From the NCBI RefSeq assembly GCF_009914755.1, contig NC_060946.1: a stretch of DNA of 64,000 nt, one strand, 5' to 3'. A program made the position numbers and the translations under genes. A model generated the notes under the pieces. It did not search any database. It was not told the DNA's origin and was given only the letters and a program-made list of their open reading frames with translations. Positions within the stretch are counted from its first letter, which is position 1. The number at the start of each line of letters is the position of its first letter. Origin of the DNA: the human T2T-CHM13v2.0 reference genome, Homo sapiens. Positions 1 to 10,586 of the stretch are shown piece by piece.

Positions 1-122
1 GAAGGAAGGAAGCAAGCAAGGAAGAAAGGAAGGAAGGAAAGAAGGAAGGAAGGACGGAAGGAAGGAAGGAAGGAAGGAAGGAAGGAAGGAAGGAAGGAAG
101 GAAAGAAGGATGAAAGGAAGGA
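1..122 (+). repeat. GGAA microsatellite (also ~6607-6716 and equivalent positions in each unit)
   Basis: Longest pure run: 12 GGAA at 56-103, 8 at 6666-6697, 9 in the 6601-bp units, 11 at 59452-59495. Confidence 0.97.
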
Positions 123-174
123 GAAAACACCGGTGTTACTAAAACCCCCCAAAAAATGGTTTCCCCCTGTGGGT

Positions 175-510
175 AAGCCTACAATGTGGATGAATCTTGA
201 AAATATTGTTCTACGTGTTATGTCAGTCATAGCAGCTCACCTATTGTGCAATTCCGTTTATAGGAAATGTCCACAATATGGAAATCTATGCATATGGGAT
301 TGATCGCACTAGGTAGTTGCTACCTAGGTCTGAGGGTCAGGGAGAGGGTTTGAGACAGAATGAGGAGTGACTAATGTCTACAGGGTCTTTCTCTGGTCGG
401 GGGTGATAAGACGTTTTACAATGGATTGCGAATTAAAATTGAATGTGCACAACCACAGGTATACTAAAAGCCACTCAATTCATGACCTTTAATGGGGGAA
501 TCTTACGTGG
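175..510 (+). mobile_element. Old L1M (L1MB/L1ME-type) 3' UTR fragment (also ~6770-7105 etc.)
   Basis: tggatgaatcttgaaaatattg...tattgtgcaattccgtttataggaaatgtcca...atactaaaagccactcaatt...ctttaa resembles L1M 3' UTR consensus. Confidence 0.75.
488..493 (-). terminator. Candidate proximal polyadenylation signal ATTAAA
   Basis: tttaat on + strand; on the minus strand a GU-rich stretch (TGTGGTTGTG) follows ~30 nt downstream; lies within the antisense L1M fragment. Confidence 0.3.
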
Positions 511-858
511 CGTAGTCTCATGGAGACCACGGCAGACATAGTGAGAGAGAAAAAGGTGAGTAAATATCTGAAACGGAGGCAGAAACAGAGAGAATGAAAA
601 GCCCTGTGAATGGAAGGGAGAGCGAAAAGGGAAAATGGTCCTATTTACAAATGACAGATGTGAAACTGGGGTTCACATCAACAGTGTCACTGCCAGGAAG
701 GAGGGTCATGCTAGCCATGTCACCGGTAGTGTGGCCCGCAGGGACGCTGACCTGCTGGAGCGTCGTGCCAGCATGGGCTGTGGCAACCACGTGGGCCAGC
801 AGGAGGTTCCCGCTGCACAGCTGTGGGGTGAGGATAGACTGGGTGGTGATATCGGCCA

Positions 859-3800
859 TTACAGAGGCCCTCTTCTGCTGGCAAGAGTGTGACAGTAGCA
901 AGTAGATGGACAGGCCTGCGTGTGAGGACGGAATGCAGGAGGGGTTCTTGTGCGCCTGGGTGTGGGGCCCTCACGGGAACCGTGGAGAAATGGCCAGGTA
1001 ACTGCGTCATGTGGGCTAGTAGATTGGCCAGGGCTTCGAACTGAAGGACGATAACGGGGAGTAGCTGTCAGGCCCTGGGAGTGCCTGAGTGTAAGTGGAG
1101 ATGGGTTTGGGGTCACTGAGGGATGCGTGGGAGCCATCCCTGTATAGGTACAGGTCATAGGGAGATAGTCTCGTGAGGCCTGTGAGTGTCTAGGGTTGTC
1201 CTGGGTGCCTGGGGCTGACTGTGGCAGAAATCTGGGGAAGGCTGGAGAGAAGCTGGGAGACCCAGGAGAGTCCCTGAAGGCAGGGGGTGAAGAGGTGAAA
1301 GAAATGGGGGAGGGTTGCAGTAAGGTCCGTGAGTTTGTAGGTGATTCCTGGGTGCGGGAAGCTGACTCCAGGTGAAATCTGGAGATGGTTGGAGAGTAGC
1401 TGAGAGAGACAGAAGAGTCCCTGAGGGCTGGGGGTGAGAACATGAGGGAGACGGGGGAGTAAGTCAGTGAAATTCGTGAGTTCGGTGGTGTATCGTGGGT
1501 GCCTGGAACTGACTCCAGCTGGAATCTAGAGAAGTTTTGAGAGTAGCTGAAGGAGACACAAGAGTCCCTGTGGGCTGAGGGCAAAGACCTGAGACAGACC
1601 AGGGAGGACCTCAGTGAAGTCTGTGAGTCTGTAGGTGATTCCGGAGTGTGGGAGGCTGACTCCCGCTGAAATCTGGGCGTGGTGGGAGAGTAGCTGGGAC
1701 AGACAGGAGAGTCCCAGGGGGCTGGGGGTGACGACGTGAGAGAGACTGGGGAGTAACTCAGTGAAATTGCTGAGTTGGTTGGTGATACCTGGGTGCCTGG
1801 AACTGACCCCCGCTGAAATCTGGGCATGGTTGGAGAGTAGCTGGGACACACAGGAGAGTCCCTGAGGGCTGGGGGTGAAGACATGAGCGAGACCGGGGAG
1901 TAACTGAGTGAAACTGGTGAGTTTGGTGGTGACTCCGGGGTGCCTGGAACTGACTCCAGCTGAAATGTGGGCGTGGTTGGAGAGTAGCTGGGACAGACAG
2001 GAGAGTCCCTGAGGACTGGTGAAGACATGAGAGAAACTGGAGAGTAATTGAGTGAAATTGGTGAGTTTGGTGGTGATTCCTGGGTGCCTGGAACTGACTC
2101 CCGCTGAAGTGTGGGCGTGGTTGGAGAGTAGCTGGGACACACAGGAGAGTCCCTGAGGGTTGGAGATAAAGACGTGCTAGAGACTGAGGAGTAACTGAGT
2201 GAAATTGGTGAGTTTGGTGGTGATTCCGGGGTGCCTGGAACGGACTCCAGCTGAAATGTGGGCGTGGTTGGAGAGTAGCTGGGACAGACGGGAGAGTCCC
2301 TGAGGGATGGTGAAGACATGAGAGAGACTGGGGAGTAACGCAGTGAAATTGGTGAGTTTGGTGGTGATTTCTGGGTGCCTGCAACGGACTCCCGCTGAAG
2401 TGTGGGCGTGCTTGGAGAGTAGCTGGGACAGACAGGCGAGTCCCTGAGGGTTGGAGATAAAGACGTGCTAGAGACTGAGGAGTAACTGAGTGAAATTGGT
2501 GAGTTTGGTGGTGATTCCGGGGTGCCTGGAACGGACTCCAGCTGAAATGTGGGCGTGGTTGGAGAGTAGCTGGGACAGACGGGAGAGTCCCTGAGGGATG
2601 GTGAAGACATGAGAGAGACTGGGGAGTAACGCAGTGAAATTGGTGAGTTTGGTGGTGATTTCTGGGTGCCTGCAACGGACTCCCGCTGAAGTGTGGGCGT
2701 GCTTGGAGAGTAGCTGGGACAGACAGGCGAGTCCCTGAGGGTTGGAGATAAAGACGTGCTGGAGACTGGGGAGTAACTCAGTGAAAGTGGTGGGCTTGGT
2801 GGTGATCCCAGGGTTCCTGGAACTGACCCGCGCTGAAATGTGGGCGTGGTTGGAGAGTAGCTGGGACAGACTGGAGGGTCCGTAAGGGCTGGGGGTGAAG
2901 ACGTGAGAGAGACTGGCGAGGATCTCACTGAGGTCTGTGAGTTTGTAGGTGTTTCTGGGGTGTGGGGTACAGACTCCCGCTGAAATCTGGGCGTAGTTGG
3001 AGAGTAGCTGGGACAGACAGGAGAGTCATGGGTGGCTGGGGGTGAGCTGCTGGATGATGGCAGTAAGAACATATGGTACATTATTGATGAATGAGGTGAC
3101 TGTGAAGAATCTCCAGAGGAGGACACGGGAGAACACAATGACATGAGTGACTGTCCTGCTTGGTTAGGAAAGGGAAACGTAAAGTTGTGGAATTCTGTTG
3201 ATGATGGATGTGAGAGTGGTGAAGCCCTGCGGGATGATGTAGAGGACTTCCACATCCCTGGTGAGGAGCTGCCCCTTGGGTCTGAGTTTCTGGGAGGGGA
3301 GAGGGAGAAGCTGGGTGAGGCAGGCATGAATCTTGAGGAGTCAGGGCTGGGGGACCGCTCATATTCTCCCGAGACCTGTGAGTCTCTGGGGGACTCCTGG
3401 GTGCATGGGGCTGACTCCCGCAGGAACCTGGGGATGGCTGGAGAGTAACTGGGAGCCACAGGAGGGTCCCTGAGGCCTGGGGGTGAAGAGATGCAAGACA
3501 CAGGGGTGGAGCAGCGTGAGGCTCGTGAGTTTGTAGGTGATTCCTGGGTGTGGGGGGCTGACTCCAGCTGAAATCTGGGGTTGTTTGGAGAGTAGCTGGG
3601 AGACACAGGAGAACCCCCGAGAGCTGGGGGTGAGCTGCTGGGTGATGGCAGTAAGAACATGTGGTATATTATTGATGAACGTGGGGACTCTGAGGAGTCC
3701 TCAGAGGAGGACACGGCAGAGCCCAATGGCTTCATTGATTGCCCATCACGGTGAGGACAGGGAAATGGGAGCTTGTGGGATTCTGGTGATGACAGAGGTG

Positions 3801-3993
3801 AGTGTGGTGAAGCCCTAGGGGATGGTGAATGGTAGTTCCGGATCCCTGGTGAGGAGCTTCCCCTTAAGCCTGAGTTTCTGAGAGGGGAGAGGGAGAAGCT
3901 GGGTGAGGCTCGCATGGACCTTGGGGTGTCCGTGCTGGGGGACCGTTCATAAGAAGAGCCAGACAAGACCCTACTGTTCTTAGGTGCAGACAT
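859..3993 (-). CDS. Ser/Pro-rich CTD-like repeat protein, copy 1 (1044 aa, short C-terminus)
   Basis: Uninterrupted ORF, ATG in ATCATGT context (A at -3), TATA/Inr upstream; one extra base near 865-870 gives ...RRGPL* rather than the longer tail. Confidence 0.7.
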   Translation of the reverse strand: MSAPKNSRVLSGSSYERSPSTDTPRSMRASPSFSLSPLRNSGLRGSSSPGIRNYHSPSPRASPHSPLSSPESHKLPFPCPHRDGQSMKPLGSAVSSSEDSSESPRSSIIYHMFLLPSPSSSPPALGGSPVSPSYSPNNPRFQLESAPHTQESPTNSRASRCSTPVSCISSPPGLRDPPVAPSYSPAIPRFLRESAPCTQESPRDSQVSGEYERSPSPDSSRFMPASPSFSLSPPRNSDPRGSSSPGMWKSSTSSRRASPLSHPSSTEFHNFTFPFPNQAGQSLMSLCSPVSSSGDSSQSPHSSIMYHMFLLPSSSSSPPATHDSPVCPSYSPTTPRFQRESVPHTPETPTNSQTSVRSSPVSLTSSPPALTDPPVCPSYSPTTPTFQRGSVPGTLGSPPSPPLSLSYSPVSSTSLSPTLRDSPVCPSYSPSTPTLQRESVAGTQKSPPNSPISLRYSPVSLMSSPSLRDSPVCPSYSPTTPTFQLESVPGTPESPPNSPISLSYSSVSSTSLSPTLRDSPVCPSYSPSTPTLQRESVAGTQKSPPNSPISLRYSPVSLMSSPSLRDSPVCPSYSPTTPTFQLESVPGTPESPPNSPISLSYSSVSSTSLSPTLRDSPVCPSYSPTTPTLQRESVPGTQESPPNSPISLNYSPVSLMSSPVLRDSPVCPSYSPTTPTFQLESVPGTPESPPNSPVSLSYSPVSLMSSPPALRDSPVCPSYSPTMPRFQRGSVPGTQVSPTNSAISLSYSPVSLTSSPPAPWDSPVCPSYSPTTPRFQRESASHTPESPTDSQTSLRSSLVCLRSLPSAHRDSCVSFSYSQNFSRFQLESVPGTHDTPPNSRISLTYSPVSLMFSPPALRDSSVSLSYSPTISRFHLESASRTQESPTNSRTLLQPSPISFTSSPPAFRDSPGSPSFSPAFPRFLPQSAPGTQDNPRHSQASRDYLPMTCTYTGMAPTHPSVTPNPSPLTLRHSQGLTATPRYRPSVRSPGQSTSPHDAVTWPFLHGSREGPTPRRTRTPPAFRPHTQACPSTCYCHTLASRRGPL
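1190..3050. repeat. Coding VNTR of 144/147-bp monomers (present in every unit)
   Basis: Motif ggagagtagctgggaca recurs every 144-147 bp; ten CPSYSP repeats plus three degenerate C-terminal ones here and two more at ~3390-3640. tggagataaagacgtgct at 2161 and 2452 gives a 291-bp dimer period. Confidence 0.97.
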
Positions 3994-4054
3994 GATTAGG
4001 AAACCTGCAGCTCCCAGGGGCCCCCACTAATGTTCTAACTCGCAGAAGGAAGGA

Positions 4055-4113
4055 GTGTGTGTGCGTGTGTGCGTGTGCGTGTGTGTGTGTGTGTGTTTGT
4101 GTGTGTGCGGTGT
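4055..4113 (+). repeat. (TG)n/(CG) microsatellite in the predicted 5' leader
   Basis: gtgtgtgtgcgtgtgtgcgtgtgcgtgtgt...; 4 bp longer in copies 4-8. Confidence 0.95.
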
Positions 4114-4157
4114 GAGGTATGGGCCCCTTAAGGAAATGGAAATCAACCAACCAATGG

Positions 4158-4183
4158 GACAGACAGACAGACAGACAGACAGA
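4158..4183 (+). repeat. (GACA)n microsatellite
   Basis: gacagacagacagacagacagacaga; expanded with a gtca interruption in copy 10 (~63253-63287). Confidence 0.95.
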
Positions 4184-4304
4184 GATTCACTTGCCCAAGT
4201 GTTCTGTCCTGTCCTCTGAATCCGCTTTCAAGTCGCAAGACGCTGTGAGCTCCAAGTCCACGCAGAGTCCGCCAAACGCTCCGGCCGCTGATCCGCTCCG
4301 CGAA

Positions 4305-4375
4305 GATCTGAGTACAGGCCAGCCAGGGTGGGTTTAAATAGCCTCGGGCGCAGCCTAGCAGCGGAAAGGGCCGAG
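4305..4375 (-). promoter_or_regulatory. Putative Pol II core promoter: TATA (4340-4333), Inr (+1 at 4309), GC-box position (4368-4375); repeated in every unit
   Basis: Minus strand reads TATTTAAA then TCAGATC (YYANWYY) with its A 31 nt after the first T of TATA; locally CpG-rich. Equivalent +1 positions: 10902, 17495, 24092, 30693, 37294, 43895, 50496, 57091, 63412. Confidence 0.7.
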
Positions 4376-4837
4376 CTTCACTCCTCCTTTCCATCAGTCA
4401 CCCCCAACTTTCCCAGGCTACACCTCGTAGGAAACTGTTCTCCTGCTTTGATTTCATGCGCCACCTTTGGGACAATCTAAGAACTTACAGGTTTTCTTGG
4501 CCAGATTTATTAGGAATTGTATGCACTGAAACACTGAAAACCAACTAGTGGTTCTGTGCTTCCCACGTTGTGGTTTTGACACCAGCAGCATCCTTGCCAC
4601 AATCAAACCCCGGAGATCCGCAGATCTGTGTTGTAACAAGACCTCCCCCTGACCCTGATGCATGGCAGTTGAAGAAGTCTTTCCGTGTAAGCGAAAAGAC
4701 TTTGAAGAAAAGGTGGAGATATGCGTAGTATAAACATTCTTTGGCTCTGGAACCACGTAGAGACTTGGGAGCCAGTTGGGTGGAGCATTCGTTGGATGAG
4801 GGTGCTCGGGTTAGGAATATCAAGGTGTTTCTCCAGA

Positions 4838-4848
4838 TAATCCAATCA
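4838..4848 (+). promoter_or_regulatory. DUX4-type double-homeodomain motif TAATCCAATCA (all 10 units)
   Basis: Matches the DUX4 consensus TAAYYBAATCA; also at 11431, 18024, 24621, 31222, 37823, 44424, 51025, 57620, 63941. Binding not demonstrated. Confidence 0.5.
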
Positions 4849-4929
4849 TCTAATTAAGATTCCAGTTATGCTCATCTGTTTTAAAATTCCGTTTGGGTAA
4901 ATTCTTTTAGTCAGACTGAGAATGGCAAA

Positions 4930-5390
4930 GCCTCAACCCCAATTTCCAGGGAGGGTGGAGAGCCTCAGGTGGAGTTGATCACCAATAGCCTATGGTTTAA
5001 CCCATCATGCCTATAGAATGAGGTCTCCATCAAAACCCAAAAGGACTGGGTTCAGAGAGCTTCTGGATAACACTTCCTGGAAGGTAGTGCACCCCTCCCC
5101 GCATGCCGGGCCCCACATTTATTTCTGAACTTTGTGCAATGTCCGCTAAAATACAACGGCAAATGTAAGTGTTTCCCTGCGTGCTGTGAGCTCTTCCAGC
5201 AAATGAATGCAACTAAATCTGGGAGTGGTGGCAACCTGATTTATAGCCAGTTGCTGAGAAGCACAGGTAAAACAACGTAGGGCTTCCCATTGTTATTGGT
5301 GTGGGAGGCCTGTCTGGCGGGACTCGGCCCTTTGGAATCTAATGCTATGTCCCGGTAGATAGCGTCACCATTGAATTAGAAGACACACAT
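4930..5390 (+). mobile_element. MER21-family LTR fragment (repeated per unit)
   Basis: Recognised from memory of the consensus: gttgatcaccaat...catgccta...aaaacccaaaaggactgggttcagagagctt, gtaagtgtttccctg...tgtgagc, ggtagatagcgtc...attgaattagaagacac. Subfamily not determined. Confidence 0.75.
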
Positions 5391-5559
5391 ATGTGGAGAA
5401 TAATCTTTCTGGTCATTTACTGCATGTCATATTTACAATATGTAATCAAATTCTTTATCCTGACCTTATGGCACCTGGGTTTAGGACCATGATTTGAACC
5501 AAACGTTGGTCTGTCACTTTCTGAGTTTGAAACTTTATTTTGCCTTTAGCGTTTTGCTA

Positions 5560-5860
5560 TTGCTTTTTCGTTTTCTTTTGTTTCGTTTCGTTTCTAAGTT
5601 CTGGGGTATATGTGCAGGATGTGCAGATTTGTTACTAAGGTAAACGTGTGCCATGGTGGTTTGCTGCACCTGTCAACCCGTCACCTAGGTATTAAGCCCA
5701 GCATGCAGTAGCTGTTTTTCTTAACGCTCTGCCTCCCGAAAGGCCCCAGTGTGTGTTGTTCCCCTTCCTGTGTCCATGGGATCTCACTTTTCAGCTCCCA
5801 TTATAAGTGAGAAGGTGGCGTTTGGTTTTCTTTCCCTGGATTAGTTTGCTGACGATAATG
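5560..5860 (-). mobile_element. L1PA 3'-end fragment with decayed poly(A) tail (repeated per unit)
   Basis: T-rich tail then gttctggggtatatgtgcaggatgtgcag...gtgtgccatggtggtttgctgcacc...cacctaggtattaagcccagcatgca...cccagtgtgtgttgttcccc, typical antisense L1PA (roughly L1PA8-10) 3' UTR. Confidence 0.9.
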
Positions 5861-5877
5861 ACCACACATCACCACTG

Positions 5878-6235
5878 TTTTTGTTTTTTAGTATAAAGAG
5901 TAGTATTTTATTGAATAAGATTTGCTCACAGAAAAATAAGCTTAAATCTACAATGAATGCCAGACCCTACAGCAGAAAGCAATTTTCTCACTTTTCCACA
6001 CACAATGGTTCCTACTAAGTGAAAAAAAAGCCATAAAATTTCATTCACAAATGTACTACTCTGTCTCAAAACATCTCACGTAATCATGCACTGTACTAAA
6101 GCCATCAGATCAGTTCTTCAGTCAGGTTAAAGAAGTATCCCTCTAATAACTGACTTTTATAATGCTATCAATATCCACTCCCAATCAGTCTGCCATTGTT
6201 AATGGTGTACAGCATTACTGAATACAACGGAATTG
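5878..6235 (-). other. Poly(A)-tailed mRNA-like 3' end (possible retrocopied 3' UTR), repeated per unit
   Basis: Minus strand AATAAA at 5912-5907, then 17 nt, then an A-rich tract at 5889-5878; preceded by AU-rich non-TE-looking sequence. Source gene not recognised. Confidence 0.5.
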
Positions 6236-6249
6236 ATGACGCCCATATC

Positions 6250-6387
6250 CACAGACAAACCGTGACTTATGATGGTTTGATTTATGATTTTTCAACGTTA
6301 TGATGGGTTTATTGGAATATTAGATTCGTTTCTGAGTTACACTGGGTTTATGAGTATGCGACCCTACACTCCAGAAACAGCTGTATA
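6250..6387. mobile_element. MER47-like Tigger-derived MITE (repeated per unit)
   Basis: gacttatgatggtttgatttatgatttttcaacgttatgatgggtttatt matches CpG-decayed MER47 terminal sequence. Confidence 0.65.
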
Positions 6388-7313
6388 AGGAAAAACAGGT
6401 GTACCTAATAAAAATATGCTTAGTGACTTGGGATAAACCAATAGATGTTCACAAGTGATGGAGAGCCGTGAAAGAGAGATAGCGGTAAATAGTTACAATA
6501 ACACAATTTTCCTGCACCTGTCGAGGATTTCCCCCAAAAAACGCAGAATGTGGGATGCACCTAAGGCATATGAAAGAGAGAGGGCAGAAGGAGTAAGAGA
6601 GAAATAGGAGGAAGGAAGGAAGGAAGCAAGGAAGAAAGGAAGGAAGGAAAGAAGGAAGGAAGGACGGAAGGAAGGAAGGAAGGAAGGAAGGAAGGAAAGA
6701 AGGATGAAAGGAAGGAGAAAACACCGGTGTTACTAAAACCCCCCAAAAAATGGTTTCCCCCTGTGGGTAAGCCTACAATGTGGATGAATCTTGAAAATAT
6801 TGTGCTACGTGTTATGTCAGTCATAGCAGCTCACCTATTGTGCAATTCCGTTTATAGGAAATGTCCACAATATGGAAATCTATGCATATGGGATTGATCG
6901 CACTAGGTAGTTGCTACCTAGGGCTGAGGGTCAGGGAGAGGGTTTGAGACAGAATGAGGAGTGACTAATGTCTACAGGGTCTTTCTCTGGTCGGGGGTGA
7001 TAAGACGTTTTACAATGGATTGCGAATTAAAATTGAATGTGCACAACCACAGGTATACTAAAAGCCACTCAATTCATGACCTTTAATGGGGGAATCTTAC
7101 GTGGCGTAGTCTCATGGAGACCACGGCAGACATAGTGAGAGAGAAAAAGGTGAGTAAATATCTGAAACGGAGGCAGAAACAGAGAGAATGAAAAGCCCTG
7201 TGAATGGAAGGGAGAGCGAAAAGGGAAAATGGTCCTATTTACAAATGACAGATGTGAAACTGGGGTTCACATCAACAGTGTCACTGCCAGGAAGGAGGGT
7301 CATGCTAGCCATG

Positions 7314-10300
7314 TCACCGGTAGTGTGGCCCGCAGGGACGCCGACCTGCTGGAGCGTCGTGCCAGCATGGGCTGTGGCAACCACGTGGGCCAGCAGGAGG
7401 TTCCCGCTGCACAGCTGTGGGGTGAGGATAGACTGGGTGGTGATATCGGCCATTACAGGGGCCTCTTCTGCTGGCAAGAGTGTGACAGTAGCAAGTAGAT
7501 GGACAGGCCTGCGTGTGAGGACGGAATGCAGGAGGGGTTCTTGTGCGCCTGGGTGTGGGGCCCTCACGGGAACCGTGGAGAAATGGCCAGGTAACTGCGT
7601 CATGTGGGCTAGTAGATTGGCCAGGGCTTCGAACTGAAGGACGATAATGGGGAGTAGCTGTCAGGCCCTGGGAGTGCCTGAGTGTAAGTGGAGATGGGTT
7701 TGGGGTCACTGAGGGATGCGTGGGAGCCATCCCTGTATAGGTACAGGTCATAGGGAGATAGTCTCGTGAGGCCTGTGAGTGTCTAGGGTTGTCCTGGGTG
7801 CCTGGGGCTGACTGTGGCAGAAATCTGGGGAAGGCTGGAGAGAAGCTGGGAGACCCAGGAGAGTCCCTGAAGGCAGGGGGTGAAGAGGTGAAAGAAATGG
7901 GGGAGGGTTGCAGTAAGGTCCGTGAGTTTGTAGGTGATTCCTGGGTGCGGGAAGCTGACTCCAGGTGAAATCTGGAGATGGTTGGAGAGTAGCTGAGAGA
8001 GACAGAAGAGTCCCTGAGGGCTGGGGGTGAGAACATGAGGGAGACGGGGGAGTAAGTCAGTGAAATTCGTGAGTTCGGTGGTGTATCGTGGGTGCCTGGA
8101 ACTGACTCCAGCTGGAATCTAGAGAAGTTTTGAGAGTAGCTGAAGGAGACACAAGAGTCCCTGTGGGCTGAGGGCAAAGACCTGAGACAGACCAGGGAGG
8201 ACCTCAGTGAAGTCTGTGAGTCTGTAGGTGATTCCGGAGTGTGGGAGGCTGACTCCCGCTGAAATCTGGGCGTGGTGGGAGAGTAGCTGGGACAGACAGG
8301 AGAGTCCCAGGGGGCTGGGGGTGACGACGTGAGAGAGACTGGGGAGTAACTCAGTGAAATTGCTGAGTTGGTTGGTGATACCTGGGTGCCTGGAACTGAC
8401 CCCCGCTGAAATCTGGGCATGGTTGGAGAGTAGCTGGGACACACAGGAGAGTCCCTGAGGGCTGGGGGTGAAGACATGAGCGAGACCGGGGAGTAACTGA
8501 GTGAAACTGGTGAGTTTGGTGGTGACTCCGGGGTGCCTGGAACTGACTCCAGCTGAAATGTGGGCGTGGTTGGAGAGTAGCTGGGACAGACAGGAGAGTC
8601 CCTGAGGACTGGTGAAGACATGAGAGAGACTGGAGAGTAATTGAGTGAAATTGGTGAGTTTGGTGGTGATTCCTGGGTGCCTGGAACTGACTCCCGCTGA
8701 AGTGTGGGCGTGGTTGGAGAGTAGCTGGGACACACAGGAGAGTCCCTGAGGGTTGGAGATAAAGACGTGCTAGAGACTGAGGAGTAACTGAGTGAAATTG
8801 GTGAGTTTGGTGGTGATTCCGGGGTGCCTGGAACGGACTCCAGCTGAAATGTGGGCGTGGTTGGAGAGTAGCTGGGACAGACGGGAGAGTCCCTGAGGAA
8901 TGGTGAAGACATGAGAGAGACTGGGGAGTAACGCAGTGAAATTGGTGAGTTTGGTGGTGATTTCTGGGTGCCTGCAACGGACTCCCGCTGAAGTGTGGGC
9001 GTGCTTGGAGAGTAGCTGGGACAGACAGGCGAGTCCCTGAGGGTTGGAGATAAAGACGTGCTAGAGACTGAGGAGTAACTGAGTGAAATTGGTGAGTTTG
9101 GTGGTGATTCCGGGGTGCCTGGAACGGACTCCAGCTGAAATGTGGGCGTGGTTGGAGAGTAGCTGGGACAGACGGGAGAGTCCCTGAGGGATGGTGAAGA
9201 CATGAGAGAGACTGGGGAGTAACGCAGTGAAATTGGTGAGTTTGGTGGTGATTTCTGGGTGCCTGCAACAGACTCCCGCTGAAGTGTGGGCGTGCTTGGA
9301 GAGTAGCTGGGACAGACAGGCGAGTCCCTGAGGGTTGGAGATAAAGACGTGCTGGAGACTGGGGAGTAACTCAGTGAAAGTGGTGGGCTTGGTGGTGATC
9401 CCAGGGTTCCTGGAACTGACCCGCGCTGAAATGTGGGCGTGGTTGGAGAGTAGCTGGGACAGACTGGAGGGTCCGTAAGGGCTGGGGGTGAAGACGTGAG
9501 AGAGACTGGCGAGGATCTCACTGAGGTCTGTGAGTTTGTAGGTGTTTCTGGGGTGTGGGGTACAGACTCCCGCTGAAATCTGGGCGTAGTTGGAGAGTAG
9601 CTGGGACAGACAGGAGAGTCATGGGTGGCTGGGGGTGAGCTGCTGGATGATGGCAGTAAGAACATATGGTACATTATTGATGAATGAGGTGACTGTGAAG
9701 AATCTCCAGAGGAGGACACGGGAGAACACAATGACATGAGTGACTGTCCTGCTTGGTTAGGAAAGGGAAACGTAAAGTTGTGGAATTCTGTTGATGATGG
9801 ATGTGAGAGTGGTGAAGCCCTGCGGGATGATGTAGAGGACTTCCACATCCCTGGTGAGGAGCTGCCCCTTGGGTCTGAGTTTCTGGGAGGGGAGAGGGAG
9901 AAGCTGGGTGAGGCAGGCATGAATCTTGAGGAGTCAGGGCTGGGGGACCGCTCATATTCTCCCGAGACCTGTGAGTCTCTGGGGGACTCCTGGGTGCATG
10001 GGGCTGACTCCCGCAGGAACCTGGGGATGGCTGGAGAGTAACTGGGAGCCACAGGAGGGTCCCTGAGGCCTGGGGGTGAAGAGATGCAAGACACAGGGGT
10101 GGAGCAGCGTGAGGCTCGTGAGTTTGTAGGTGATTCCTGGGTGTGGGGGGCTGACTCCAGCTGAAATCTGGGGTTGTTTGGAGAGTAGCTGGGAGACACA
10201 GGAGAACCCCCGAGAGCTGGGGGTGAGCTGCTGGGTGATGGCAGTAAGAACATGTGGTATATTATTGATGAACGTGGGGACTCTGAGGAGTCCTCAGAGG

Positions 10301-10586
10301 AGGACACGGCAGAGCCCAATGGCTTCATTGATTGCCCATCACGGTGAGGACAGGGAAATGGGAGCTTGTGGGATTCTGGTGATGACAGAGGTGAGTGTGG
10401 TGAAGCCCTAGGGGATGGTGAATGGTAGTTCCGGATCCCTGGTGAGGAGCTTCCCCTTAAGCCTGAGTTTCTGAGAGGGGAGAGGGAGAAGCTGGGTGAG
10501 GCTCGCATGGACCTTGGGGTGTCCGTGCTGGGGGACCGTTCATAAGAAGAGCCAGACAAGACCCTACTGTTCTTAGGTGCAGACAT
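7314..10586 (-). CDS. Ser/Pro-rich CTD-like repeat protein, copy 2 (1090 aa)
   Basis: Intact ORF with 48/49-aa repeats containing YSPTTPT-type heptads. Confidence 0.7.
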   Translation of the reverse strand: MSAPKNSRVLSGSSYERSPSTDTPRSMRASPSFSLSPLRNSGLRGSSSPGIRNYHSPSPRASPHSPLSSPESHKLPFPCPHRDGQSMKPLGSAVSSSEDSSESPRSSIIYHMFLLPSPSSSPPALGGSPVSPSYSPNNPRFQLESAPHTQESPTNSRASRCSTPVSCISSPPGLRDPPVAPSYSPAIPRFLRESAPCTQESPRDSQVSGEYERSPSPDSSRFMPASPSFSLSPPRNSDPRGSSSPGMWKSSTSSRRASPLSHPSSTEFHNFTFPFPNQAGQSLMSLCSPVSSSGDSSQSPHSSIMYHMFLLPSSSSSPPATHDSPVCPSYSPTTPRFQRESVPHTPETPTNSQTSVRSSPVSLTSSPPALTDPPVCPSYSPTTPTFQRGSVPGTLGSPPSPPLSLSYSPVSSTSLSPTLRDSPVCPSYSPSTPTLQRESVAGTQKSPPNSPISLRYSPVSLMSSPSLRDSPVCPSYSPTTPTFQLESVPGTPESPPNSPISLSYSSVSSTSLSPTLRDSPVCPSYSPSTPTLQRESVAGTQKSPPNSPISLRYSPVSLMSSPFLRDSPVCPSYSPTTPTFQLESVPGTPESPPNSPISLSYSSVSSTSLSPTLRDSPVCPSYSPTTPTLQRESVPGTQESPPNSPISLNYSPVSLMSSPVLRDSPVCPSYSPTTPTFQLESVPGTPESPPNSPVSLSYSPVSLMSSPPALRDSPVCPSYSPTMPRFQRGSVPGTQVSPTNSAISLSYSPVSLTSSPPAPWDSPVCPSYSPTTPRFQRESASHTPESPTDSQTSLRSSLVCLRSLPSAHRDSCVSFSYSQNFSRFQLESVPGTHDTPPNSRISLTYSPVSLMFSPPALRDSSVSLSYSPTISRFHLESASRTQESPTNSRTLLQPSPISFTSSPPAFRDSPGSPSFSPAFPRFLPQSAPGTQDNPRHSQASRDYLPMTCTYTGMAPTHPSVTPNPSPLTLRHSQGLTATPHYRPSVRSPGQSTSPHDAVTWPFLHGSREGPTPRRTRTPPAFRPHTQACPSTCYCHTLASRRGPCNGRYHHPVYPHPTAVQREPPAGPRGCHSPCWHDAPAGRRPCGPHYR

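What the first reader, a model, noticed from the sequence alone, without database searches (positions are those of the whole stretch)
4838..4848. DUX4 consensus site about 530 bp upstream of every predicted TSS
Seen: TAATCCAATCA in all ten copies, with a near match (TAACCCATCA, ~4998) in the adjacent MER21 fragment. Known: DUX4 binds TAAYYBAATCA and activates cleavage-stage multicopy genes (ZSCAN4, PRAMEF, TRIM43, MBD3L2). Inference: the array may be transiently expressed at zygotic genome activation, in 8C-like cells or FSHD muscle, which would explain absence from adult data. A single 11-mer can occur by chance and the ten copies are not independent evidence.
Basis: partly seen in the sequence, partly recalled or inferred. 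Interest (0 to 1): 0.7.

Follow-up and report, generated by a model that had tools for sequence, protein, structure and literature searches.

The report
DUX4-bound promoter of ACRO repeat gene
Each 6.6-kb unit of this human acrocentric repeat array carries an exact binding sequence for the embryo factor DUX4 ahead of a predicted gene for a long, RNA-polymerase-tail-like protein; DUX4 binds the same site in copies elsewhere, so it likely switches on some 190 copies in early embryos and FSHD muscle.

Summary
The 11-mer TAATCCAATCA is exact in 10 of 10 units, 529 bp from a predicted minus-strand start site. The window is the ACRO composite macrosatellite. Each unit holds a TATA/Inr-like promoter and an open Ser/Pro-rich frame of 992-1090 aa with 16-20 YSP motifs; a database model of an 832-aa marmoset relative exists. 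Published DUX4 ChIP-seq peaks (Young 2013, hg19) sit on this site in five mappable paralogs on chr2 and chr4, matched by exact spacings and offsets, and ACRO1 RNA rose 15.8-fold with DUX4. DUX4 induction and cleavage-stage expression of ACRO1 are already in print; the site, its binding and the gene layout were not found there. Against: DUX4 binds tens of thousands of sites when overexpressed; none of the five peaks shows significant local induction; the site is lost in at least five lineages, one a 26-copy sub-array; the start site is unverified; pN/pS is about 1 or above; no protein evidence. The second 'near match' is decayed MER21 sequence. Verdict: likely a new member of the DUX4-driven multicopy gene arrays.

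The parts
4838..4848 (+). DUX4 consensus site TAATCCAATCA, unit 1 (also 11431, 18024, 24621, 31222, 37823, 44424, 51025, 57620, 63941); overlaps TAATCC and is followed by CTAATTA
   Evidence: homologous site under DUX4 ChIP-seq peaks on chr2 and chr4
4803..4813 (-). Inverted, degenerate second DUX4-like site (2 mismatches here; exact in chr19 copy L040, 1 mismatch in L027 and L034)
4934..5393 (.). MER21-type LTR fragment (MER21B label from the acrocentric preprint); holds TAACCCATCA at 4998; the DUX4 site lies outside it
   Evidence: boundaries from the alignment to the chr8 paralog
4368..4375 (-). GC-box position: CTCCGCCC in units 4-10, CTCGGCCC in units 1-3
4333..4340 (-). TATA-like TATTTAAA
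   Evidence: 10 of 10 units; kept in 12 of 14 paralogs aligned, changed in L022 and chr8 L039
4305..4311 (-). Inr-like TCAGATC; predicted start site at 4309
   Evidence: spacing from TATA; not verified by 5' data (one search found nothing)
4195..4309 (-). Predicted non-coding exon 1, no ATG
4005..4194 (-). Predicted 190-nt intron, GC donor (GT donor at the same place in chr19 and chr8 paralogs), AG acceptor with weak pyrimidine tract
859..3993 (-). Open frame, unit 1: 1044 aa, Ser/Pro-rich, 20 YSP motifs
7314..10586 (-). Open frame, unit 2: 1090 aa (same length in units 2-9; 992 aa in unit 10); Ser 24%, Pro 18%, Thr 8%; no Pfam family
1199..3045 (.). ACRO1 147-bp satellite array (12.6 copies; 49 codons per unit) inside the open frame
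488..493 (-). Candidate poly(A) signal ATTAAA followed by G/T-rich sequence
   Evidence: present in the 8 array paralogs that aligned (2 did not align), changed in chr8
19..6608 (.). One 6.6-kb ACRO composite unit; ten units in the window

Best explanation
The 11-mer is a DUX4 binding site in the upstream region of a predicted two-exon gene inside each ACRO composite unit, and DUX4 bound there likely fires the TATA promoter 0.5 kb away at the 4- to 8-cell stage and in DUX4-expressing muscle. Shown: the site; the open frame; DUX4 peaks on the homologous site in five paralogs; family-level induction of ACRO1 RNA by DUX4 with no ChIP enrichment on ACRO1 itself (1.1x), which places the binding outside the satellite. 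Inferred: that DUX4 (recruiting p300/CBP, passage) opens this promoter; that the ACRO1 RNA of cleavage embryos is the body of a minus-strand transcript running 4309 to about 470; that about 190 site-bearing copies respond together. Untested: translation into the disordered YSP-repeat protein.
For: Peaks in Young 2013 Table S1 at hg19 chr2:133,041,212 and 133,047,117 are 5,905 bp apart, as are the two chr2 paralog sites in CHM13 (offset 321,222 for both). The peak at chr2:162,137,203 maps to the third chr2 paralog with offset 398,206, between the offsets of flanking peaks (398,264-398,269 and 398,187). Peaks at chr4:49,296,723 and 49,309,157 match two chr4 copies that carry the window's exact TAATCCAATCA (offsets 28,206 and 28,205). 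ACRO1 RNA 15.8x with DUX4; five other satellites 0.5-4.2x and HSATII 857x. ACRO1 peaks at the 4-cell stage, is low in germ and somatic cells and up in early embryos, and is hypomethylated in FSHD model cells. The site is present from the chr19 copy L040 inward; diverged copies read TAATTCAATCA, a change at a degenerate position. Gene layout kept in paralogs, with a canonical GT donor in chr19 and chr8 copies. Frame open in 10 of 10 units against 12-100 stops in the other five frames; marmoset model of 832 aa, 72% identical over residues 1-340; none of 1500 neutral simulations kept 830 codons open at 4% divergence.
Against: The ChIP-seq was lentiviral overexpression with 63,795 peaks against 50,174 consensus sites, so binding of an exact site is common. 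None of the five peaks shows significant induction within 1 kb (two 'Not expressed', three FDR 0.62-0.97). Only 2 of 6 intact chr4 copies have a listed peak (peaks used unique reads only). The site is broken in at least five lineages among 29 aligned copies (L030, L036/L037, L042, L045/L046, L047; sample enriched for variants), among them 26 copies at the tips of chr15 and chr21 most of whose listed frames stay long; no excess conservation over the flanks was shown. The chr8 paralog (74% identical) lacks about 80 bp around the site. No match for the tested hg19 coordinates in the embryo 5'-end supplements of PMC4569847. One reanalysis reports ACRO1 rising after cleavage; it is also found in Ewing sarcoma plasma. 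pN/pS among human paralogs is about 1 or above. ACRO1 RNA blocks Pol II elongation in reporters. Strand of the induced RNA is not given in what I read.
Confidence: 0.65

Rival explanations
1. DUX4 binds the site, but ACRO1 RNA rises indirectly, through general loss of heterochromatin at satellites or through DUX4 targets; the site is a bystander like most bound sites.
For: Binding is common; no significant local induction at five peaks; site repeatedly lost; ACRO1 DNA is already hypomethylated in sperm and spermatogonial cells.
Against: Beta satellite (0.8x) and SST1 (0.5x) of the same chromosome arms are not induced while ACRO1 is (15.8x); the site lies 0.5 kb from a TATA/Inr pair kept in paralogs.
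Confidence: 0.17
2. In the embryo the promoter is driven mainly by another homeodomain factor: the site overlaps TAATCC, the K50-type motif of OTX2 and TPRX (motif recalled, not from a call), and is followed by CTAATTA.
For: TAATCC is in the acrocentric clade, which is the clade that expanded most; DUX4 knockdown changes human ZGA genes little (passage).
Against: Older copies read TAATTC, which lacks TAATCC but keeps the DUX4 match and is DUX4-bound; DUX4 alone induces ACRO1 in myoblasts. The two are not exclusive.
Confidence: 0.08
3. The site drives a non-coding satellite transcript: the RNA, not a protein, is the product (chromatin or nucleolar organisation, or self-silencing through Pol II-binding aptamers), and the open frame is a relic.
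For: pN/pS about 1 or above; baboon and colobus models are short (282, 291 aa); the marmoset model has a stretch that reads like another frame; ACRO1 RNA binds Pol II; RefSeq has no gene here.
Against: Frame open in about 120 of the 150 places listed (900 aa or more; hand-copied tally); repeat unit is a multiple of three; no indel in the first 1005 nt of 17 array copies; colinear marmoset model. This rival differs from the best explanation only in the product.
Confidence: 0.1

Closest known systems
ACRO composite repeat / ACRO1-containing repeat elements (ACREs)
   Same: The window is this repeat: 147-bp ACRO1 arrays in a roughly 6-kb unit with MER21B and L1 pieces. Pol II CTD likeness of the translated repeat, a 'putative protein coding gene' in the array, cleavage-stage expression and DUX4 induction are in print.
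   Different: In the passages read, no promoter, start codon, full frame or DUX4 site is described; ACRO1 is treated as a satellite. Database models of primate relatives are named 'RPB1' or 'RPB1-like' automatically.
DUX4-activated multicopy cleavage-stage genes (ZSCAN4, PRAMEF, TRIM43/49/51, MBD3L2-5, RFPL4A; family features recalled, some names seen)
   Same: Primate tandem gene array, DUX4 site upstream, induced by DUX4, expressed in cleavage embryos, fast-evolving.
   Different: About 224 copies on nine or more chromosomes, mostly acrocentric short arms; no folded domain; no protein evidence; not annotated as a gene here.
RNA polymerase II CTD (RPB1 heptad YSPTSPS)
   Same: 20 YSP motifs, 12 as YSPxxP, in a Ser/Pro/Thr-rich chain predicted to be disordered.
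   Different: Motifs are spaced about 22-27 residues apart in a 49-aa repeat, never as tandem heptads; no exact YSPTSPS among the 20; no polymerase domain, no Pfam hit. It is not an RPB1 paralog.
HSATII, the DUX4-induced satellite
   Same: Satellite family induced by DUX4 in the same data set.
   Different: HSATII is bound within the satellite and induced 857x; ACRO1 has 0 peaks on 61 copies and is bound 1.8 kb or more away, at a gene-like promoter.

Membership tests
Direct DUX4 target genes | Exact DUX4 consensus near the promoter | tested here: met
   529 bp from the predicted start
Direct DUX4 target genes | DUX4 ChIP-seq peak on the site | tested here: met
   five paralogs on chr2 and chr4 in Young 2013 Table S1; the window's own copies could not be checked; 49,232 of 63,795 rows were held
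Direct DUX4 target genes | RNA induced by DUX4 | tested here: met
   family level only: ACRO1 15.8x; not significant per peak
Direct DUX4 target genes | Expression peak in cleavage embryos | tested here: met
   from papers: 4-cell peak, early embryo; one reanalysis reports a rise after cleavage
Direct DUX4 target genes | Induction depends on the site and starts at the predicted promoter | not testable with these tools
   needs reporter or 5'-end data; one search found nothing
Direct DUX4 target genes | Site conserved beyond its flanks | tested here: inconclusive
   old in the family but lost at least five times; sample biased
ACRO composite repeat | 147-bp ACRO1 array in a roughly 6-kb unit with MER21B and L1 pieces on acrocentric arms | tested here: met
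   L1 pieces not checked against a library
Protein-coding gene | Long open frame kept across copies and species | tested here: met
   other species are database models
Protein-coding gene | Purifying selection on amino acids | tested here: not met
   N/S per site 0.95-1.55 on pooled variants of human paralogs
Protein-coding gene | Translation evidence | not testable with these tools
   no paper held with ACRO1 + protein + ribosome profiling
RPB1 / Pol II CTD | Tandem YSPTSPS heptads on a polymerase body | tested here: not met

The most novel reading that the evidence does not exclude
Human acrocentric short arms, thought to hold almost no coding genes, carry about 190 DUX4-switched copies of an unannotated gene whose 1000-aa disordered product mimics the Pol II tail; made in a burst at genome activation and in FSHD muscle, it would soak up CTD kinases, phosphatases or readers, or seed condensates beside forming nucleoli, with copy number varying between people.
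Probability: 0.2. Interest if true: 0.9.

Novelty: new member of a known kind. Interest (0 to 1): 0.62.

Why it matters
It turns a loose observation in print (ACRO1 satellite RNA rises with DUX4 and at the 4-cell stage) into a gene model with a named switch that can be tested with existing data. ACRO is the repeat most tied to great-ape acrocentric arms and changes copy number between generations. If it is a direct DUX4 target it would be among the highest-copy ones, hidden from unique-read analyses, and a candidate marker in FSHD and 8-cell-like cells. The 26 copies with a broken site are a built-in control.

Tried and rejected
Second site TAACCCATCA: rejected as a DUX4 site. Ten copies as independent evidence: rejected. 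Site donated by MER21: rejected; it lies about 90 bp outside the fragment. RPB1 paralog: rejected. Excess conservation of the site: the 26-bp invariant run in 22 copies is not evidence, since 20 of them were picked by that 22-mer; copies picked by other anchors showed losses. EWS:FLI1 acting through the unit's GGAA tract: ACRO1 did not change much on EWS:FLI1 expression in HeLa. Embryo 5'-end tables of PMC4569847: no match for six coordinate prefixes in 7 files; the table format was not inspected, so this is weak. Young 2013 Tables S4/S5 do not list six tested peaks as new promoters. Hendrickson 2017, Whiddon 2017 and Hoyt 2022 were not held, so the primary report of DUX4 induction was seen second-hand only; two large supplements of PMC8990217 could not be read and may hold NET-CAGE start sites. 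chr19 and chr21 peaks lie in the part of Table S1 that was cut. Atlas search of the marmoset model gave only leads under 0.9 and a low-confidence model, pLDDT 0.40. A peak without motif at hg19 chr4:49,316,533 maps inside a frame and stays unexplained. No fold, complex or representative search was run.

Full report
Observation. The window is a tandem array of 6.6-kb units, 96-99.7% identical. TAATCCAATCA, an exact match to TAAYYBAATCA, occurs once per unit at the same place in 10 of 10 units. Because the units are copies, the fair test is per unit: 2.6% for the whole unit and 0.5% for the kilobase upstream of the TATA-like box, or about 1.6% per kb from the 50,174 sites in the genome. That is suggestive, not decisive. 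I drop it.

What the array is. A 147-bp satellite of 12.6 copies inside a roughly 6-kb unit is the ACRO composite repeat (preprint 10.64898/2025.12.22.696095, passages; PMC7714431, passages and section 7). A 32-base anchor finds 224 units in CHM13 (up to 2 mismatches). The consensus site with its flank is found 194 times, of which at least 3 of the 100 listed are unrelated places; 26 copies at the tips of chr15 and chr21 carry a broken site.

Anatomy. On the minus strand each unit has a GC-box position, TATTTAAA at 4340-4333, an Inr-like TCAGATC whose A (4309) is 31 bases on, a predicted 190-nt intron and an ATG at 3993. The donor is GC in the window and canonical GT at the same place in chr19 and chr8 paralogs, which supports the intron; no ATG precedes 3993 whether or not it is spliced (sequence). 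The frame is open for 1044, 1090 (eight units) and 992 aa; the other five frames hold 12-100 stops. ATTAAA lies at 493-488. The product is 24% Ser, 18% Pro, with 20 YSP motifs and no Pfam family. The DUX4 site starts 529 bp from 4309 and lies outside both ACRO1 and the MER21 fragment. Start site, intron and poly(A) site are predictions.

Is the site bound? Young 2013 (PMC3836709; passages; Table S1 parts 1, 67, 134 and searches, 49,232 of 63,795 rows held; Table S2 rows) lists DUX4 peaks in hg19. Two peaks on chr2 have best motifs 5,905 bp apart, the spacing of the two chr2 paralog sites in CHM13, with one offset, 321,222. A third peak maps to the other chr2 paralog at offset 398,206, between the offsets of three upstream peaks (398,264-398,269) and one downstream (398,187) that I checked against the genome. 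Two chr4 peaks match two copies with the window's exact 11-mer (offsets 28,206, 28,205). So 3 of 3 chr2 copies and 2 of 6 intact chr4 copies have a peak, and 0 of 2 broken chr4 copies, if hg19 is colinear there. Peaks used unique reads only. The chr1 copy was not looked up; chr19 and chr21 lie in the cut part; the window's own copies could not be checked.

Is the unit induced? In the same work ACRO1 RNA rose 15.8x, with 0 peaks on 61 ACRO1 copies and 1.1x read enrichment; beta satellite 0.8x, SST1 0.5x, SATR1 2.7x, D20S16 3.3x, HSAT5 4.2x, HSATII 857x. That fits binding at the promoter rather than in the satellite. None of the five peaks shows significant induction within 1 kb. DUX4 induction of ACRO1 is stated in PMC8990217, PMC11467316 and PMC12776069 (passages), which cite earlier work (PMC11467316 and PMC8990217 name Hendrickson 2017, which I could not read). 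ACRO1 peaks at the 4-cell stage (PMC6545021, passages), is low in germ and somatic cells and up in early embryos (PMC5832720, passage); PMC12287470 (passages) reports a rise after cleavage; PMC11060741 (passages) finds it in Ewing sarcoma plasma.

History of the site. In a tree of 29 promoter copies rooted on the chr8 paralog, the diverged chr2 and chr19 copies read TAATTCAATCA and the acrocentric clade TAATCCAATCA, both consensus. The site is broken in at least five lineages; the sample was enriched for variants, and no excess conservation is shown. One chr19 copy has a second exact site, inverted, 35 bp away, where the window has two mismatches. The chr8 paralog (74% identical, frame broken) keeps exon 1, donor, acceptor and ATG but lacks about 80 bp around the site; whether the site was gained in the ACRO line or lost on chr8 is open.

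Is it a coding gene? For: about 120 of the 150 places listed by a protein search have open frames of 900 aa or more (hand-copied, may be off by one; 150 of 1765 candidates); a marmoset model of 832 aa is 72% identical over residues 1-340 and colinear to the tail; two adjacent titi monkey models match the tail; 0 of 1500 neutral simulations kept 830 codons open at 4% divergence under my assumed indel rate. Against: N/S per site is 0.95-1.55 among 22 human paralogs (the group labelled 'intact' there includes broken copies); baboon and colobus models are short; the marmoset model has a stretch that reads like another frame; all are predictions; ACRO1 RNA blocks elongation in reporters.

Mechanism. 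Most likely DUX4 binds the site, opens the promoter and gives a burst of minus-strand transcript through ACRO1 from many copies at cleavage and in DUX4-expressing muscle (0.65). Rivals: bystander site with indirect derepression (0.17), RNA rather than protein as the product (0.1, compatible with the same promoter), another homeodomain factor on the overlapping TAATCC (0.08).

Novelty. Known: the repeat, its CTD likeness, a 'putative protein coding gene' in it (PMC12746033, passage), its embryo expression and DUX4 induction. Not found in print: the promoter, the site and its binding. Searches: ACRO1+DUX4 (6 listed, passages of all 6 read), ACRO1+satellite, ACRO1+embryo, ACRO+acrocentric+open reading frame+CTD (0), ACRO composite+acrocentric (0), RPB1-like+DUX4 (0), ACRO1+protein+ribosome profiling (0), DUX4+T2T-CHM13+acrocentric+unannotated, ACRO+macrosatellite+DUX4+zygotic genome activation (listings only unless named above). 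Subscription papers and unread supplements may hold it. Verdict: new member of a known kind, interest 0.62.

Noticed in passing
L039 (G000:C8:48461400-48465800), L029: Single, deeply diverged paralog on chr8 (74% identical): exon 1, GT donor, acceptor, ATG and a longer MER21-type copy kept, frame broken, about 2 kb of extra sequence between promoter and MER21; a candidate source locus or early offshoot of the family.
   Followed up: partly
G000:C15:91 kb-155 kb and C21:106 kb-217 kb (L045, L046): 26-copy sub-array with a broken DUX4 site; most of its listed open frames are among the longest (up to 1513 aa stop to stop).
   Followed up: partly
L040 (chr19), window 4803-4813: A second exact DUX4 site, inverted, 35 bp from the first in one chr19 copy; degenerate in the window.
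   Followed up: partly
G000:C13:9352392, C14:2822001, C15:4711836, C22:5725004: Diverged copies with short frames (268-329 aa) on four acrocentric arms, about 86% identical (L030); positions suggest the rDNA-proximal junction (recalled coordinates).
   Followed up: no
L022, L023 (chr14 tip array): TATA-like box changed to AATTTAAA in chr14 tip copies that keep the DUX4 site and a 993-aa frame.
   Followed up: no
window 859-880 against 7314-7470: Unit 1 ends its frame 46 codons early (1044 against 1090 aa) through a small frameshift near the tail; units 1-3 also lack the GC box.
   Followed up: no
window 1-122, 6609-6716 and each unit: GGAA-type tract of 27-31 copies between units.
   Followed up: partly
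residues about 15-200 and 211-400 of the frame: In-frame internal duplication of about 196 aa, present in human and marmoset.
   Followed up: no
P0009, P0019: Near-identical proteins are filed under Plasmodium ovale wallikeri, one as RPB1; likely human contamination of that assembly.
   Followed up: no
hg19 chr4:49,316,359-49,316,745 and 49,513,543-49,514,591: Two strong DUX4 peaks near the chr4 array: one without motif maps inside a frame (L017), one was not mapped.
   Followed up: partly
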